From NCBI GenBank assembly GCA_019058365.1, contig JAHPZE010000027.1:1-61999 (forward strand): a stretch of DNA of 61,999 bases. The letters run 5' to 3'. The notes under the pieces are model-generated. The model was not told where the DNA came from. It did not search any database and saw nothing but the letters and a program-made list of their open reading frames with translations. A program made the translations under genes and the position numbers. Shown here piece by piece: positions 1,848-39,716 of this stretch; position 1 is the first letter of the stretch; every line of letters begins with the position of its first letter. The stretch comes from Promethearchaeota archaeon. Lineage in GTDB: Archaea > Asgardarchaeota > Lokiarchaeia > Sigyniarchaeales > SOKP01.

Positions 1848-4805
1848 ATGAGTTATACATTTTCAAGGACTAAAATGATTGAAAAAATAAAATTTGGACT
1901 TTTGAGCCCAAATGAGATTCGGAAAATGAGTGCAGCAAGAATAATTACTGCTGACACTTATGACGAGGATGGACTTCCGATACCAAGTGGTCTTATGGAC
2001 CAAAGATTAGGAACTATCGAACCTGGACAACGATGTCAGACTTGTGGTAATCTCGTGAGCAATTGTATGGGGCATTTCGGACATTGTAAGAAGCATTTAG
2101 AGTCTTACGTCTAAATTGAACTGGCCCGTCCGGTAATTCACGTCGGTTACGCAAAAAAAGTCTTAAAAGTATTAAGAAGTATTTGTCCAGAATGTAGCAA
2201 GTTAATGCTCACTGAAGATGAAAAAGAGAAATTCAGACAAGAGCAATTAACACATAGAAAGATCTTTTTTGAGGGCGATGAGGATGCTGCTAAAATTGTT
2301 TTTAAAAGAGCAAGGAAGGCAAAAGTTTGCCCTCATTGTGGAGCTATTAAAAAAAAAATTATTATTGAAAAACCAACTACCTTTTATGAAGAAGAAGAAG
2401 GCAAAGGCTCACGGAGAATAACGCCTATTGAGATTTTAGAACGTCTAAAGAAAATTGGTGATGTGGATCTAAGGATCCTTGGTATTTCTCCTGAAAATGC
2501 AAGACTTGAATGGGTAGTATTTACAGTATTACCAATCCCTCCTGTATGTGCAAGGCCATCAATTACTCTAGATAGTGGTATTCGATCTGAAGATGATTTA
2601 ACACATAAGCTGGTTGATGTCATCCGAATTAACCAAAGATTGCGAGAGAATATTGATGCAGGAGCGCCTCATTTAATAGTTGAAGATCTATGGGAATTAT
2701 TACAATACCATATTACAACTTATTTTGATAATCAAGTTTCTGGTATACCTCCTGCTAGGCATCGTTCTGGTAGAGCACTTAGAACATTAACTCAGAGGTT
2801 AAAGGGTAAGGAGGGTAGATTTAGAAGTAATCTAAGTGGTAAAAGAGTTGATTTTTCTGCCCGCAGTGTTATATCACCTAATCCATATATTAGCATTAAT
2901 GATGTAGGTGTTCCAATAGAAATTGCAAAAATTTTGACAATCCCTACGAATGTTAATGATTGGAATATTGAAGAGATGAAACAAATGGTCCTAAATGGAC
3001 CTTTTAGACATCCGGGTGCGAATTACATCATACGTAATGATCGAAGAAGGATTGACTTACGATACGTAAAAAACCGAAAAATTATCGCTGATATGCTCGC
3101 ACCGGGTTTTACAATTGAACGACATTTAAATGATGGAGATTTAGTATTGTTCAATCGACAACCTTCGCTTCATAGAATGAGTATAATGGCTCATGAAGTA
3201 AAAATAATGACAGGAAGAACTTTTCGCCTAAATTTAACTGTATGCCCACCTTATAATGCGGACTTCGATGGAGATGAAATGAATTTACATGTACCCCAAA
3301 GTGAAGAAGCACGCACGGAAGCAGAATTACTTCTTAAAGTTCAAAACCATATACTTTCTCCAAGATTTGGTGGACCAATATTAGGCGGAATTCAAGATTT
3401 TATATCAAGTGTCTTTCAATTTACCAGTAAAGAATCTTTATACGATAAGAAGGACACATTAAAATTATTATATTTTGGAGATGTATATAAAAATAATCCT
3501 GATTTTAGTTTAGATCAACTTACTCCTATAATTACTGATCCAGAGCCAAAATACTCGGGAAAAGAAATTTTTAGTACATTATTTCCAGATGATCTAAATA
3601 TTAAAGTAAAATCTAAATTTTGTAAAAAATGCGAAATCTGTGAAGAGGAAAATTGTCCTTATGATGCGTATGTCGTGATTAAAAATGGTAAATTAATAAC
3701 TGGAACTGTTGATGAGAATTCTTTTGGAGCTATGCAATCAAATAGTATCTTGCAGCGCATAATTAAAGATCATGGTAATGCACTTGGAAGGCAATTTTTA
3801 GATAGTGCTACCAAAATGCTCTTATACGTTATTCGACAGAATGGAATGACAATGGGATTGGATGAAGTGTATGTGCATGGACATGCATATGAAGAAATCG
3901 AAAAAATATTAAAAGATGCAAACATCGAGTCTGAGAAATTAATTAATGCTTTCTATGAAAATGATACAACAATTCTTAGAAGAGCACCCGGACGTTCAAT
4001 GAGAGAAACATTGGAATTAAGAATCAGACAAGTATTAGCAGAAGCTAGAAAACAAGCAGAAGAAACTGCTGCAAATTTCATTGGAGATGAAGCTCATTCT
4101 GTTATTATGACTAAATCTGGAGCTCGGGGTAATATATTAAATTTAGGACAAATGTCTGCGGTTGTTGGGCAACAAGCAATTAGAGGAGAAAGGATAAATC
4201 GAGGATATAGTATGAGAACATTGCCTCATTTTAAAATTAATGATCTTTCACCTAAATCCAGAGGATTTGTATCCTCTTCTTATAGAAATGGATTAAAACC
4301 AGTGGAATTTTTCTTCCACGCAATGGGAGGAAGAGAGGGATTAGTAGACACAGCAGTTAGAACTTCTACCTCGGGATATATGCAACGTAGGTTAGTAAAT
4401 GCATTACAAGATATGGTTGTTGAAAATGATGGCACCGTCAGAAATTCGGATAAAAATATTATCCAATTCCGCTTTGGTGATGATGGTATAGATCCTATGC
4501 ATACAGATCATGGTGCTGCTGTAAATTTAGATGTTTTATTATTAAAAGCCAAAGCCTTGGATTCTAAAGAAGTACGTGAAGAAATTAAAAAAAACTTACC
4601 AAAAAAATTATCCGTATCGAAGGAAAAAGGAGTATCTAAAAAAAAACCTACTAAAACACCTACAAATAAACCGCAACCAAAGAAAAAACCAGATGATAAT
4701 GACTCAATGATACAACAATTCGAAGAAGAGACTGGTAAAAAAGCAATTTGGCGAGGGAAAGAAACCAAAGCTTATTTAGATTGGAAAGAAGAAAAATTAG
4801 GATAA
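1848..4805 (+). CDS. rpo1N: DNA-directed RNA polymerase subunit Rpo1N (A'), two exons 1848-2084 and 2115-4805 (975 aa after removing the 30-nt insert)
   Basis: FGLLSP, CQTCG..CMGHFGH|[21 protein letters not shown] catalytic motif, [13 protein letters not shown]; ORFs 1848-2114 and 2205-4805 are in the same frame. Confidence 0.97.
2085..2114 (+). other. Putative 30-nt BHB-type (archaeal tRNA-splicing-type) intron in rpo1N mRNA
   Basis: TGTAAGAAGCATTTAGAGTCTTACGTCTAA; central helix GGAC(2079-82)/GTCT(2109-12); bulges ATT(2083-85) and AAA(2113-15); intron stem GTAAGA/TCTTAC; removal gives GGA CAT|ATT GAA (G-H-I-E). Confidence 0.88.
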
Positions 4806-30926: not shown

Positions 30927-32263
30927 ATGAGTTCGAAACTAAAAGAACATTTGAATTTAGTGATAATAGGGCACATCGATCATGGAAAGATTTAGTTTAA
31001 ATAAAACTCAATCCCATAGAATCAACCATGATGGGCGCTATGCTTATTGAAACAGGCGCAGTTACAGATAGAGAAGCTCGTGAATTAGACAAACTCGCAA
31101 AAGAATACGATAGAGATTCTTGGTCTTATGCCTTTGTTTTTGACAGATTAAAAGAGGAGAGACAGCGTGGCATCACAATTGACTTAGCATTTAGAAAATT
31201 TGAGACTAAAACAAAGTATTTCACTATCATTGATGCACCTGGCCATGCTGACTTCGTAAAAAATATGATTACTGGTGCAAGCCAAGCTGATGCTGCTATC
31301 TTAGTAGTATCTGGGAAGAAAGGTGAAATGGAAGTTGGGATCGCAGCTAATGGACAAACTCGTGAACATGCTTATTTAGCTCAAACATTAGGTGTAAAAC
31401 AACTAGTCGTTGCTATCAATAAAGCAGATGTTTATGAGTATTCTGAGGCAAGATTTAATGAATGTAAGGAAGCAGTTGGAGATCTTCTAAAAAACATAGG
31501 ATTTAAGCTCAAGGATGTACCCTTTGTCCCTACTTCTGGCATGCAAATGGAAAATCTTTCAAAGAAAAGCGATAAAATGCCATGGTATAATGGTCCAACC
31601 TTGATTGAAGCTATTGATCAATTTGTCCTTCCTGAAAAACCAACTGGTAAACCTTTGAGACTACCCATCCAAGATTGCTATAAAATTAAGGGAACTGGTG
31701 TAGTCCCCGTTGGTAGAGTAGAGACTGGAATATTAAAGAAAGGAGATAAAATTATTATTATGCCCACTGGATTTCAAGGTGAAATCCGAAGTATCGAAAT
31801 GCATCATGAAGAAATTCCACAAGCTATCCCTGGAGATAACGTAGGATTTAGTATTAGGGGCATTACATTGGCAGATGCAAGTAGAGGAGATTGTTTAGGA
31901 CATCCTAGTGATCCACCAACTGTAGTTACTCCAAAAGGAAAATGGACGGGACAGATTATTGTTATTTGGCATCCTACAGCAATAGCCCAAGGTTACACTC
32001 CGGTAATTCATGCACATACAGCACAAGTAGCTGCAAAGTTTACGAGTTTAGTTAAAAAATTAGATCAGAAAACTGGGGCTGTAATTGAAGACTCACCTAA
32101 GTTTCTTAAAAAGAATGAAGCTGCCATCGTAGAGCTATCTCCGATTAAGAAAATGTGTCTTGAAAAGTATGAAGTAATTCCAGAAATGGGCCGATTCGCA
32201 GTACGCGATATGGGTCGTACCGTATGTGTAGGGATTGTGAAGGACATAGTTACAGGCGCATAA
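30927..32263 (+). CDS. tuf: Elongation factor 1-alpha, two exons 30927-30987 and 31020-32263 (434 aa after removing the 32-nt insert)
   Basis: Exon 1 MSSKLKEHLNLVIIGHIDHG(K); exon 2 STMMG..ERQRGITID, DAPGHADF, NKAD, GRFAVRDMGRTV. Confidence 0.97.
30988..31019 (+). other. Putative 32-nt BHB-type intron in EF-1alpha mRNA
   Basis: AGATTTAGTTTAAATAAAACTCAATCCCATAG; central helix ATGG(30982-85)/CCAT(31014-17); bulges AAA(30986-88) and AGA(31018-20); intron stem GATT/AATC + AGTTT/AAACT; removal gives GGA A|AA TCA ACC (G-K-S-T). Confidence 0.88.
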
Positions 32264-38886: not shown

Positions 38887-39716
38887 ATGCTTTATTGCAC
38901 TACTTTTCTATGCAAGAGTGGTCTAAAACTAATGATAAATACTGGCATTAATAAGATAGTATATAAAGAAGGTTATAGTATGGAAAATTAGTAAAAGAAA
39001 AAATTATCAAAATATCTGATTTAATAATTGACCCTTTTTCTTATGTACATAATTTAAAGGGATAAAAAAGACTTTTTGCTATAGGACAAAAATTTATTTC
39101 TAAGAATTCGAATATCTATGTGATTTTTCAAATTCTTCTCAAAATATGCAAATTACTTTTTTACTTCTTTATATACTCCATTTAATTTCTATATAAAATA
39201 GCCCCACTGTGAAAATAAATATTTTTCAAAGTTACCTAGAAATATAATCGGTTTTTAAAAAAATTTAATAATCTATTTACATCAGCCAGTCACTATTCTT
39301 TCCAGTAAAGTCAATTATATTATAAAATTGTTGGAATTGATCTTAATTTAAAGAATATTCTCTTCTGCTTAATACAGAAAAATTTAATTTTGAGTTCTGA
39401 ATTTTTTACCTACCTTTCTATTACTTCAGAACTATTGTAGCTTTGTTTATAGGAGCCATCCTTTCGAATTTCTATAATAAGATGAAAAAACATGTAATAA
39501 AATAGAGTTAGACTTTAATCATTATTAGCGAGTTATTTTAAGAAAGGAGGAATGCAAGTCCGATTTACTATTCGTGATGCTAAAATATTAAACGATTTGA
39601 AAGGCCATTTTGAAAAATTCATTGCTTTAATGGGAAAAATTAGTGTATACATTGTGTATGAAAAAGATTTAGTCTAATTTATAAATGCAGAAATAAAATA
39701 AAGAGCCGAAATAAAT

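What the first reader, a model, noticed from the sequence alone, without database searches (positions are those of the whole stretch)
30975..31030. 32-nt bulge-helix-bulge intron inside the P-loop of EF-1alpha
Seen: the EF-1alpha N-terminus (MSSKLKEHLNLVIIGHIDHGK, ATG 30927) is missed by the ORF track because a 32-nt insert adds a stop and a frameshift inside the G1 motif. Structure: central helix AUGG/CCAU; bulges AAA (30986-88) and AGA (31018-20); intron hairpin GAUU-U-AGUUU-[AAAUA]-AAACU-C-AAUC; short exon pairing GAU/AUC. Cutting after bulge nt 2 on both strands removes 30988-31019 and yields GGA AAA UCA ACC = G-K-S-T, restoring GHIDHGKST and the reading frame. Because 32 is not a multiple of 3, readthrough cannot rescue the gene, so precise excision is needed. 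The insert shares no obvious sequence with the rpo1N insert, only geometry.
Basis: partly seen in the sequence, partly recalled or inferred. Interest (0 to 1): 0.95.

Follow-up and report, generated by a model that had tools for sequence, protein, structure and literature searches.

The report
tRNA-type mini-intron splits Asgard EF-1alpha
The only gene for the essential translation factor EF-1alpha in this Asgard (Loki-type) archaeon is broken by a 32-base insert shaped like the introns that archaea cut out of tRNAs, one of at least nine such inserts in its protein genes, so these relatives of eukaryotes very probably splice many messenger RNAs, which the papers I could search document inside only one archaeal protein gene (cbf5).

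Summary
Confirmed. Removing window 30988-31019 joins two exons that match consecutive positions of the EF-1alpha model (3-20, then 21 on) and restores GHIDHGKST. It is the genome's only EF-1alpha, and an independent read assembly has the same insert. The fold is a relaxed bulge-helix-bulge motif (shuffle p=0.0012); the exon side is a 1x3 loop, not canonical. Ten different 31-33 nt inserts occupy this site across the family, all keeping helix and cut register, and four more EF-1alpha sites carry such inserts. The genome encodes a two-subunit EndA with the Aeropyrum-type K-P-R loop, plus RtcB. It has at least eight more homology-checked inserts: rpoA1, carB, radA, lsrF, AMP phosphorylase and three in rpl11. 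Best reading: an EndA/RtcB-spliced mRNA intron (0.92). Splicing is not shown at RNA level. Near-identical introns in distant hosts suggest lateral spread. The known precedent is crenarchaeal cbf5; new are the Asgard host, essential genes and multiplicity. This scan had already noted EF-1alpha introns, including this site, in other Asgard genomes.

The parts
30927..30987 (+). Exon 1 of EF-1alpha: codons 1-20 and the first base of Lys21 (beta-1 strand and P-loop GHIDHG)
   Evidence: matches PRK12317 EF-1alpha model positions 3-20
30988..31019 (+). 32-nt putative BHB/BHL intron in the P-loop lysine codon (phase 1)
   Evidence: absent from most relatives, same site occupied in others
30978..30980 (+). 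5' strand GAT of the 3-bp exon helix (pairs with 31021-23; C30981 unpaired, giving a 1x3 loop)
   Evidence: kept in all ten site variants, GAC/GTC compensatory in L197
30982..30985 (+). Central helix, exon strand ATGG
   Evidence: His codon CAT in 11/11 carriers versus 14/46 intronless genes
30986..30988 (+). 5' bulge AAA; predicted cut between 30987 and 30988
   Evidence: BHB rule; equals the frame-restoring register
30989..31013 (+). Intron hairpin: GATT/AATC, AGTTT/AAACT, loop AAATA 30999-31003; holds in-frame TAG 30993-95 and a TAA at 30998-31000 in the exon-2 frame
   Evidence: loop varies freely among relatives while stems are kept
31014..31017 (+). Central helix, intron strand CCAT
   Evidence: invariant in ten distinct inserts
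31018..31020 (+). 3' bulge AGA; predicted cut between 31019 and 31020
31020..32263 (+). Exon 2 of EF-1alpha (rest of Lys21 to stop); the first ATG at 31028 gives the truncated 411-aa ORF that gene callers report
   Evidence: matches model from position 21
2085..2114 (+). Second insert of the same kind in this window: 30 nt with in-frame TAA in the rpoA1 zinc-site motif CMGHFGH^IEL
   Evidence: motif-free census; absent from 5 close relatives; same site in 10 of 135 family genomes with exon-intron compensatory changes

Best explanation
A protein-spliced archaeal-type mRNA intron. The pre-mRNA folds into a relaxed bulge-helix-bulge motif. The (alpha-beta)2 splicing endonuclease EndA cuts after the second base of each 3-nt bulge (30987/30988 and 31019/31020), RtcB joins the exons, and the mRNA then reads GGA AAA UCA ACC (G-K-S-T), giving full-length 434-aa EF-1alpha. 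Unspliced RNA gives a 22-aa peptide; internal initiation at ATG 31028 would lack the P-loop. Shown here: the insert, its geometry, conservation of structure rather than sequence, single gene copy, presence of the enzymes. Inferred: cleavage, ligation and in vivo splicing. It belongs to a population of such mini-introns in core genes of this Lokiarchaeia family. They recur at fixed conserved sites and probably spread between lineages by recombination or gene conversion (weaker inference, about 0.65).
For: Only EF-1alpha copy in a 100%-complete assembly; next tblastn hit is 26% identical. Exons match consecutive model positions. Cut register equals the BHB rule, p=0.0012. Ten distinct inserts of 31, 32 and 33 nt at the same base, as little as 11/32 identical, all with ATGG/CCAT, 3-nt bulges and an intron helix with compensatory pairs such as A-T to C-G, T-A to G-C, T-A to C-G or A-T. 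Four more EF-1alpha sites with the same geometry. At the rpoA1 site 10/10 inserts keep four central pairs while the exon wobble base and its intron partner change together, A-T, G-C, G-T, T-G. In the motif-free census the well-supported disruptive inserts have BHB at the homology-defined register, and none of the stop-free in-frame inserts reaches 4+4 pairs. EndA alpha is closest to Aeropyrum and Sulfolobus enzymes and keeps Tyr/His/Lys and the loop K-P-R, residues tied to relaxed-motif cleavage (PMC12397907); beta subunit and RtcB present. Exon 1 is conserved in protein among carriers despite synonymous change.
Against: No spliced transcript or full-length protein was found. One pattern that would match spliced and unspliced forms hit only an unspliced contig in JGI metagenomes, a mostly DNA collection. 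The BHB fold is 1.2 kcal/mol above the local MFE and central-helix pair probabilities are about 0.53. The exon side is not canonical. On the seven-row alignment of this site the formal covariation score does not beat shuffles, because the key pairs are invariant. One carrier of another site (G019) also has an unrelated in-frame TAA.
Confidence: 0.92

Rival explanations
1. Ribosomal recoding (bypass or programmed frameshift) produces EF-1alpha without RNA cutting.
For: A stop codon and a hairpin follow the exon-1 codons closely, as in T4 gene 60 bypassing (own knowledge).
Against: No matching landing codon: Lys take-off AAG would need AAR before TCA, but the codon there is GAA. Both exon frames are blocked inside the insert (TAG 30993, TAA 30998), so two shifts would be needed and about 11 residues would enter the P-loop. 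Inserts of 31, 32 and 33 nt occur at the same base, and exon-intron helix pairs co-vary, which recoding does not require.
Confidence: 0.02
2. Pseudogene or assembly artefact.
For: The genome is a MAG with 6.6% contamination; one other carrier gene has a stray stop.
Against: Only copy; identical in an independent assembly of reads; same site in several species and genera; exon 2 is 98.5% identical in protein to G005 at 0.82 four-fold-site identity.
Confidence: 0.02
3. A miniature DNA hairpin element that is excised precisely from the chromosome (for example by an IS200/IS605-type transposase), with function supplied by excised alleles.
For: Patchy distribution and intronless close relatives; a hairpin with 4-nt pairing to the flank loosely recalls IS200/IS605 target recognition (own knowledge).
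Against: Inserts in different genes share no sequence and have no second copy in the genome. The staggered 3-nt bulge geometry is that of EndA substrates and matches this genome's own tRNA and 23S rRNA introns. Nine or more independent DNA excisions per cell would be needed.
Confidence: 0.03

Closest known systems
cbf5 pre-mRNA intron of Crenarchaeota (Desulfurococcales, Sulfolobales; Watanabe 2002; Yokobori 2009, PMC2738675)
   Same: Short (cbf5: 16-44 bp), unconventional BHB, cut after bulge base 2, splits the codon of a key catalytic residue between bases 1 and 2 (Asp there, P-loop Lys here), host has a hetero-oligomeric EndA.
   Different: cbf5 is one gene with one inherited site, and its splicing is shown. 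Here the host is Asgard, genes are essential and many (at least 7 in one genome, three inserts in rpl11), EF-1alpha has five sites across the family, carriers are scattered on the gene tree, and splicing is not yet shown.
BHB intron in the 5' UTR of Haloferax HVO_1309 (PMC7714728)
   Same: mRNA substrate of EndA with a BHB motif.
   Different: Lies in the untranslated leader and does not interrupt a reading frame; halophile EndA.
Non-canonical tRNA introns of Asgard archaea and Thermoproteales (PMC11291895; bioRxiv 10.64898/2026.10.13.758758)
   Same: Same size class and geometry, repeated gains, relaxed motifs, (alpha-beta)2 EndA; this genome's tRNA genes hold similar 27-31 nt BHB candidates.
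   Different: Those are in tRNA genes; the preprint has no occurrence of 'mRNA' or 'cbf5' and does not treat coding introns.
Archaeal rRNA introns with LAGLIDADG homing endonucleases and their ORF-less derivatives (discussed in PMC2738675)
   Same: BHB ends, mobile between lineages, conserved target sites; this genome has one in 23S rRNA.
   Different: The EF-1alpha inserts are too short to encode a nuclease, and no long ORF-bearing version was seen at this site (my patterns would have missed long inserts).

Membership tests
Archaeal BHB (EndA-spliced) intron | 4-bp central helix flanked by two 3-nt bulges on opposite strands | tested here: met
   ATGG/CCAT with AAA and AGA; p=0.0012 by shuffling
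Archaeal BHB (EndA-spliced) intron | Cuts after bulge base 2 give the correct exon junction | tested here: met
   Rule-based excision equals the only length that restores GKST; HMM halves contiguous
Archaeal BHB (EndA-spliced) intron | Intron-side helix closing the 5' bulge | tested here: met
   4 bp here; 2-4 of the first 4 pairs in relatives, with compensatory changes
Canonical hBHBh' motif | Exon-side helix directly closing the 3' bulge | tested here: not met
   0 of 4 pairs in direct register; 3 pairs after skipping C30981, a 1x3 loop, i.e. relaxed BHL type as in cbf5-like unconventional motifs
Archaeal BHB (EndA-spliced) intron | Host encodes EndA able to cut relaxed motifs, and an RNA ligase | tested here: met
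   alpha with Tyr/His/Lys and K-P-R loop aligned to Aeropyrum K44-P45-R46, beta subunit, RtcB; activity inferred from sequence
Archaeal BHB (EndA-spliced) intron | Excision from the RNA in vivo or by EndA in vitro | not testable with these tools
   No transcript data; a junction pattern found only an unspliced contig
cbf5 pre-mRNA intron | Located in cbf5 at the catalytic Asp codon | tested here: not met
   Host gene is EF-1alpha; works like the cbf5 intron but is not that intron
Homing (LAGLIDADG) archaeal intron | Encodes its own endonuclease | tested here: not met
   32 nt, no ORF
Group I / group II / spliceosomal intron | Ribozyme core of hundreds of bases, or GU-AG ends | tested here: not met
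   32 nt; no relevant Rfam match; 5' ends at this site are AG or TG

The most novel reading that the evidence does not exclude
This Lokiarchaeia family runs routine pre-mRNA splicing. Short EndA/RtcB introns interrupt many essential genes per genome (at least nine inserts here, three in one ribosomal protein gene), recur at fixed conserved motifs and move between lineages, making the tRNA-splicing machinery a gate on expression of translation, transcription and repair genes in a close prokaryotic relative of eukaryotes.
Probability: 0.65. Interest if true: 0.9.

Novelty: new variant of a known kind. Interest (0 to 1): 0.77.

Why it matters
The literature I could search treats coding-region splicing in archaea as a single-gene curiosity (cbf5). 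Obligatory splicing of EF-1alpha, RNA polymerase A', uL11, RadA and CarB mRNAs in an Asgard lineage would show genes in pieces without a spliceosome in the group nearest to eukaryotes, by the enzyme family related to eukaryotic TSEN. It makes intron gain and spread in archaea testable on many independent sites. Practically, gene callers report these proteins truncated (for example 409-411-aa EF-1alpha lacking the P-loop), which affects marker-gene phylogenies and metabolic reconstructions of Asgard genomes.

Tried and rejected
De novo genome scan (BHB plus a coding model): too noisy for a count, about 2200 hits for true and for shifted registers alike. With tighter filters 8 versus 4 and 3 in controls; it missed EF-1alpha itself, and one hit (C18:3006) proved to be two adjacent ABC genes. 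So the count of nine is a floor from homology checks, not an estimate. A further 400 kb of reference gave no more disruptive inserts; shared introns are invisible to that census. Search for spliced sequences: none in JGI contigs or among listed cluster members; the spliced protein has no reference and could not be looked up. Second class-wide pattern was too strict and says nothing about other families; the 24 genomes outside the family were only partly inspected. No donor sequence for the intron in the genome; no RVT_1 reverse transcriptase. First tree had one misaligned row, corrected. Two short database proteins were not intron cases: L169 is intact with a TTG start, L168 is a contig edge. 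Rfam and sigma-70 scans uninformative. Eight literature searches found no report of Asgard coding-region BHB introns; the library lacks most subscription papers.

Full report
Observation. From ATG 30927 the frame reads MSSKLKEHLNLVIIGHIDHGK-I-stop. Trying every deletion of 1-79 nt around the site, only a 32-nt one restores GHIDHGKST and a 434-aa ORF. Registers 30988-31019 and 30989-31020 give the same RNA. Exon 1 matches positions 3-20 of the EF-1alpha model and exon 2 starts at 21. tblastn finds no second copy; the next hit is 26% identical, in an assembly rated 100% complete and 6.6% contaminated. A Logan contig from SRR14802574 is identical over 1437 bases, insert included. Relatives are titled Promethearchaeota/Promethearchaeia, so the host is a Lokiarchaeia-type Asgard archaeon.

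Structure. At the frame-restoring register the RNA forms ATGG/CCAT, 3-nt bulges AAA and AGA, and a 4-bp intron helix; neighbouring registers do not. Shuffling the insert reaches this in 0.12% of trials. The exon side is weaker than stated: GAT/ATC pairs only after skipping C30981, a 1x3 loop, so the motif is relaxed. It lies 1.2 kcal/mol above the local MFE, with central pair probabilities near 0.53.

Comparative evidence at this site. Two sister species have a 32-nt insert at the same base, while relatives at 96-98% protein identity lack it. A family-wide pattern found N-terminal inserts in 13 of 135 genomes in four genera, a lower bound. Following database proteins that lack the P-loop gave more carriers. 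In all, ten distinct inserts of 31, 32 and 33 nt sit at this base. They share as few as 11 of 32 bases, yet all keep ATGG/CCAT, the bulges and an intron helix, with both-sided changes in the most divergent ones. Loops vary freely. On seven rows 93% of cells pair, against 27-52% for slid partners, but the covariation score does not exceed shuffles because key pairs are invariant. Carriers use CAT for the adjacent His in 11/11 cases versus 14/46 in intronless genes, as the helix requires; the rows are not independent. Four other EF-1alpha sites carry inserts of 29-31 nt with the same geometry: V^I, H^I, D^H in the P-loop strand and D^F after DAPGHA.

Genome context. A motif-free comparison with 790 kb of a relative recovered rpoA1, EF-1alpha and rpl11 as well-supported disruptive inserts, each with BHB at the homology-defined register; stop-free in-frame inserts never reached 4+4 pairs. 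rpl11 resolves into three inserts. A further 400 kb added none. carB, radA, lsrF and AMP phosphorylase have BHB inserts between halves that match consecutive model positions. That is nine inserts in seven genes, a floor. The rpoA1 site is occupied in 10 of 135 genomes, always with four central pairs, and the Gly wobble base changes together with its intron partner. This is the clearest exon-intron covariation I found. Earlier notes of this scan pointed to radA, lsrF, AMP phosphorylase and rpoA1; I re-tested those four.

Machinery. Two EndA paralogues and RtcB are present. The catalytic subunit is closest to Aeropyrum and Sulfolobus enzymes and keeps Tyr, His, Lys and the loop K-P-R. In Aeropyrum K44, P45 and R46 of this loop matter for cleavage, and such loops are linked to relaxed motifs (PMC12397907). 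The genome is also rich in tRNA introns and has a homing-type 23S rRNA intron with BHB ends.

Mechanism. Most likely EndA cuts at 30987/8 and 31019/20 and RtcB ligates the exons (0.92). Recoding is unlikely: there is no matching landing codon, both exon frames hold stops inside the insert, and three lengths occur at one base. Pseudogene and artefact are excluded by single copy, independent assemblies and conservation. DNA-level excision has no support beyond patchiness. No spliced RNA was found; one pattern able to match both forms hit only an unspliced contig, which is weak because the collection is mostly DNA.

Spread. Carriers of this site are scattered on the EF-1alpha tree (at least 9 changes), and monophyly of the five similar 32-nt carriers is rejected, p-AU 2.7e-6. 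Introns are 28-29/32 identical between hosts whose gene bodies share only 0.30-0.38 of four-fold sites, yet 25/32 between hosts at 0.82. Flanking third positions are shared among distant carriers (6-7 of 8) and not with their intronless sisters (1 of 8), part of which structure alone explains. Lateral transfer by recombination fits best; an old intron with many precise losses and strong constraint is not excluded. No reverse transcriptase was found, and how a site is first invaded is open.

Comparison and novelty. The closest known case is the crenarchaeal cbf5 intron: 16-44 bp, unconventional BHB, splitting a catalytic codon (PMC2738675). A 2020 paper names it as the only earlier mRNA case and adds one in a Haloferax 5' UTR (PMC7714728). 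Papers on Asgard introns cover tRNA genes. Eight searches found no report of Asgard coding introns, within a library that lacks most subscription papers. This scan has noted EF-1alpha and EF-2 introns in other Asgard genomes before, including 32- and 33-base inserts in the P-loop; those notes are not independent evidence. The element works like the cbf5 intron and meets the testable features of a relaxed BHB intron, but not the canonical exon helix. I class it as a new variant of a known kind: same chemistry, new host group, essential genes, many sites per genome. Interest 0.77.

Noticed in passing
G000 C34 minus strand, inserts starting at 39280, 39222 and 39157 (L221): Ribosomal protein uL11 gene carries three inserts (37, 36, 28 nt) in its first 35 codons; removing all three restores the sequence of the intact relative. 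Two have 4-bp central helices, the middle one 3 of 4.
   Followed up: partly
window 2085-2114: rpoA1 insert; absent in five close relatives, present at the same site in 10 of 135 family genomes of five genera (30, 31 and 40 nt), with exon-intron compensatory changes.
   Followed up: yes
G000 C24:5759 (+, 30 nt), C46:248835 (-, 31), C9:585 (-, 32), C9:32935 (+, 30): BHB inserts in carB, radA, lsrF and AMP phosphorylase; the two halves match consecutive family-model positions in each.
   Followed up: yes
G000 C36:26637 (-, 31 nt) and C7 about 91535 (+, probably 30 nt): Candidate inserts in a mevalonate-kinase-like gene (GKTILFGE^HFVVYG) and in the HSHPGF motif of a JAMM/Rpn11-like gene; judged by motif only.
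   Followed up: partly
G000 C35 minus strand, about 95357-94581 (L231): A 777-nt intron in the 23S rRNA gene with BHB ends (CGTG/CACG, read by eye) encodes a LAGLIDADG protein: a classical homing rRNA intron in an Asgard genome.
   Followed up: partly
G000 C46:49077-50564 and C35:55929-59600: Two more LAGLIDADG-domain ORFs: a 496-codon one between flavoprotein-like genes and one inside a 1224-codon ORF, perhaps an intein.
   Followed up: no
G024 C7, first 400 kb (L125-L144): A 29-nt fully canonical BHB insert in a gene that is intact in this genome: relatives have their own private introns.
   Followed up: partly
L031 (G019 C117): EF-1alpha with a site-A insert also has an in-frame TAA about 140 codons into exon 2; assembly error or decay.
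   Followed up: no
G000 tRNA genes: ARAGORN finds only 30 tRNAs, 19 with (often mis-placed) introns; several fit 27-31 nt non-canonical BHB introns.
   Followed up: partly
EF-1alpha 5' ends, L001-L005: The first 24 codons look mosaic: intronless sisters about 88-90% identical at third positions in the gene body share only 2-5 of 8 per window near the intron site and have a different N-terminus (MADKEH versus MSSKxKEH).
   Followed up: partly
L045-L055, L070 record titles: NCBI labels such as Odin-, Thor-, Hod- or Hermodarchaeota are attached to genomes that fall in this genus by contig match and EF-1alpha identity of 88-94%.
   Followed up: no
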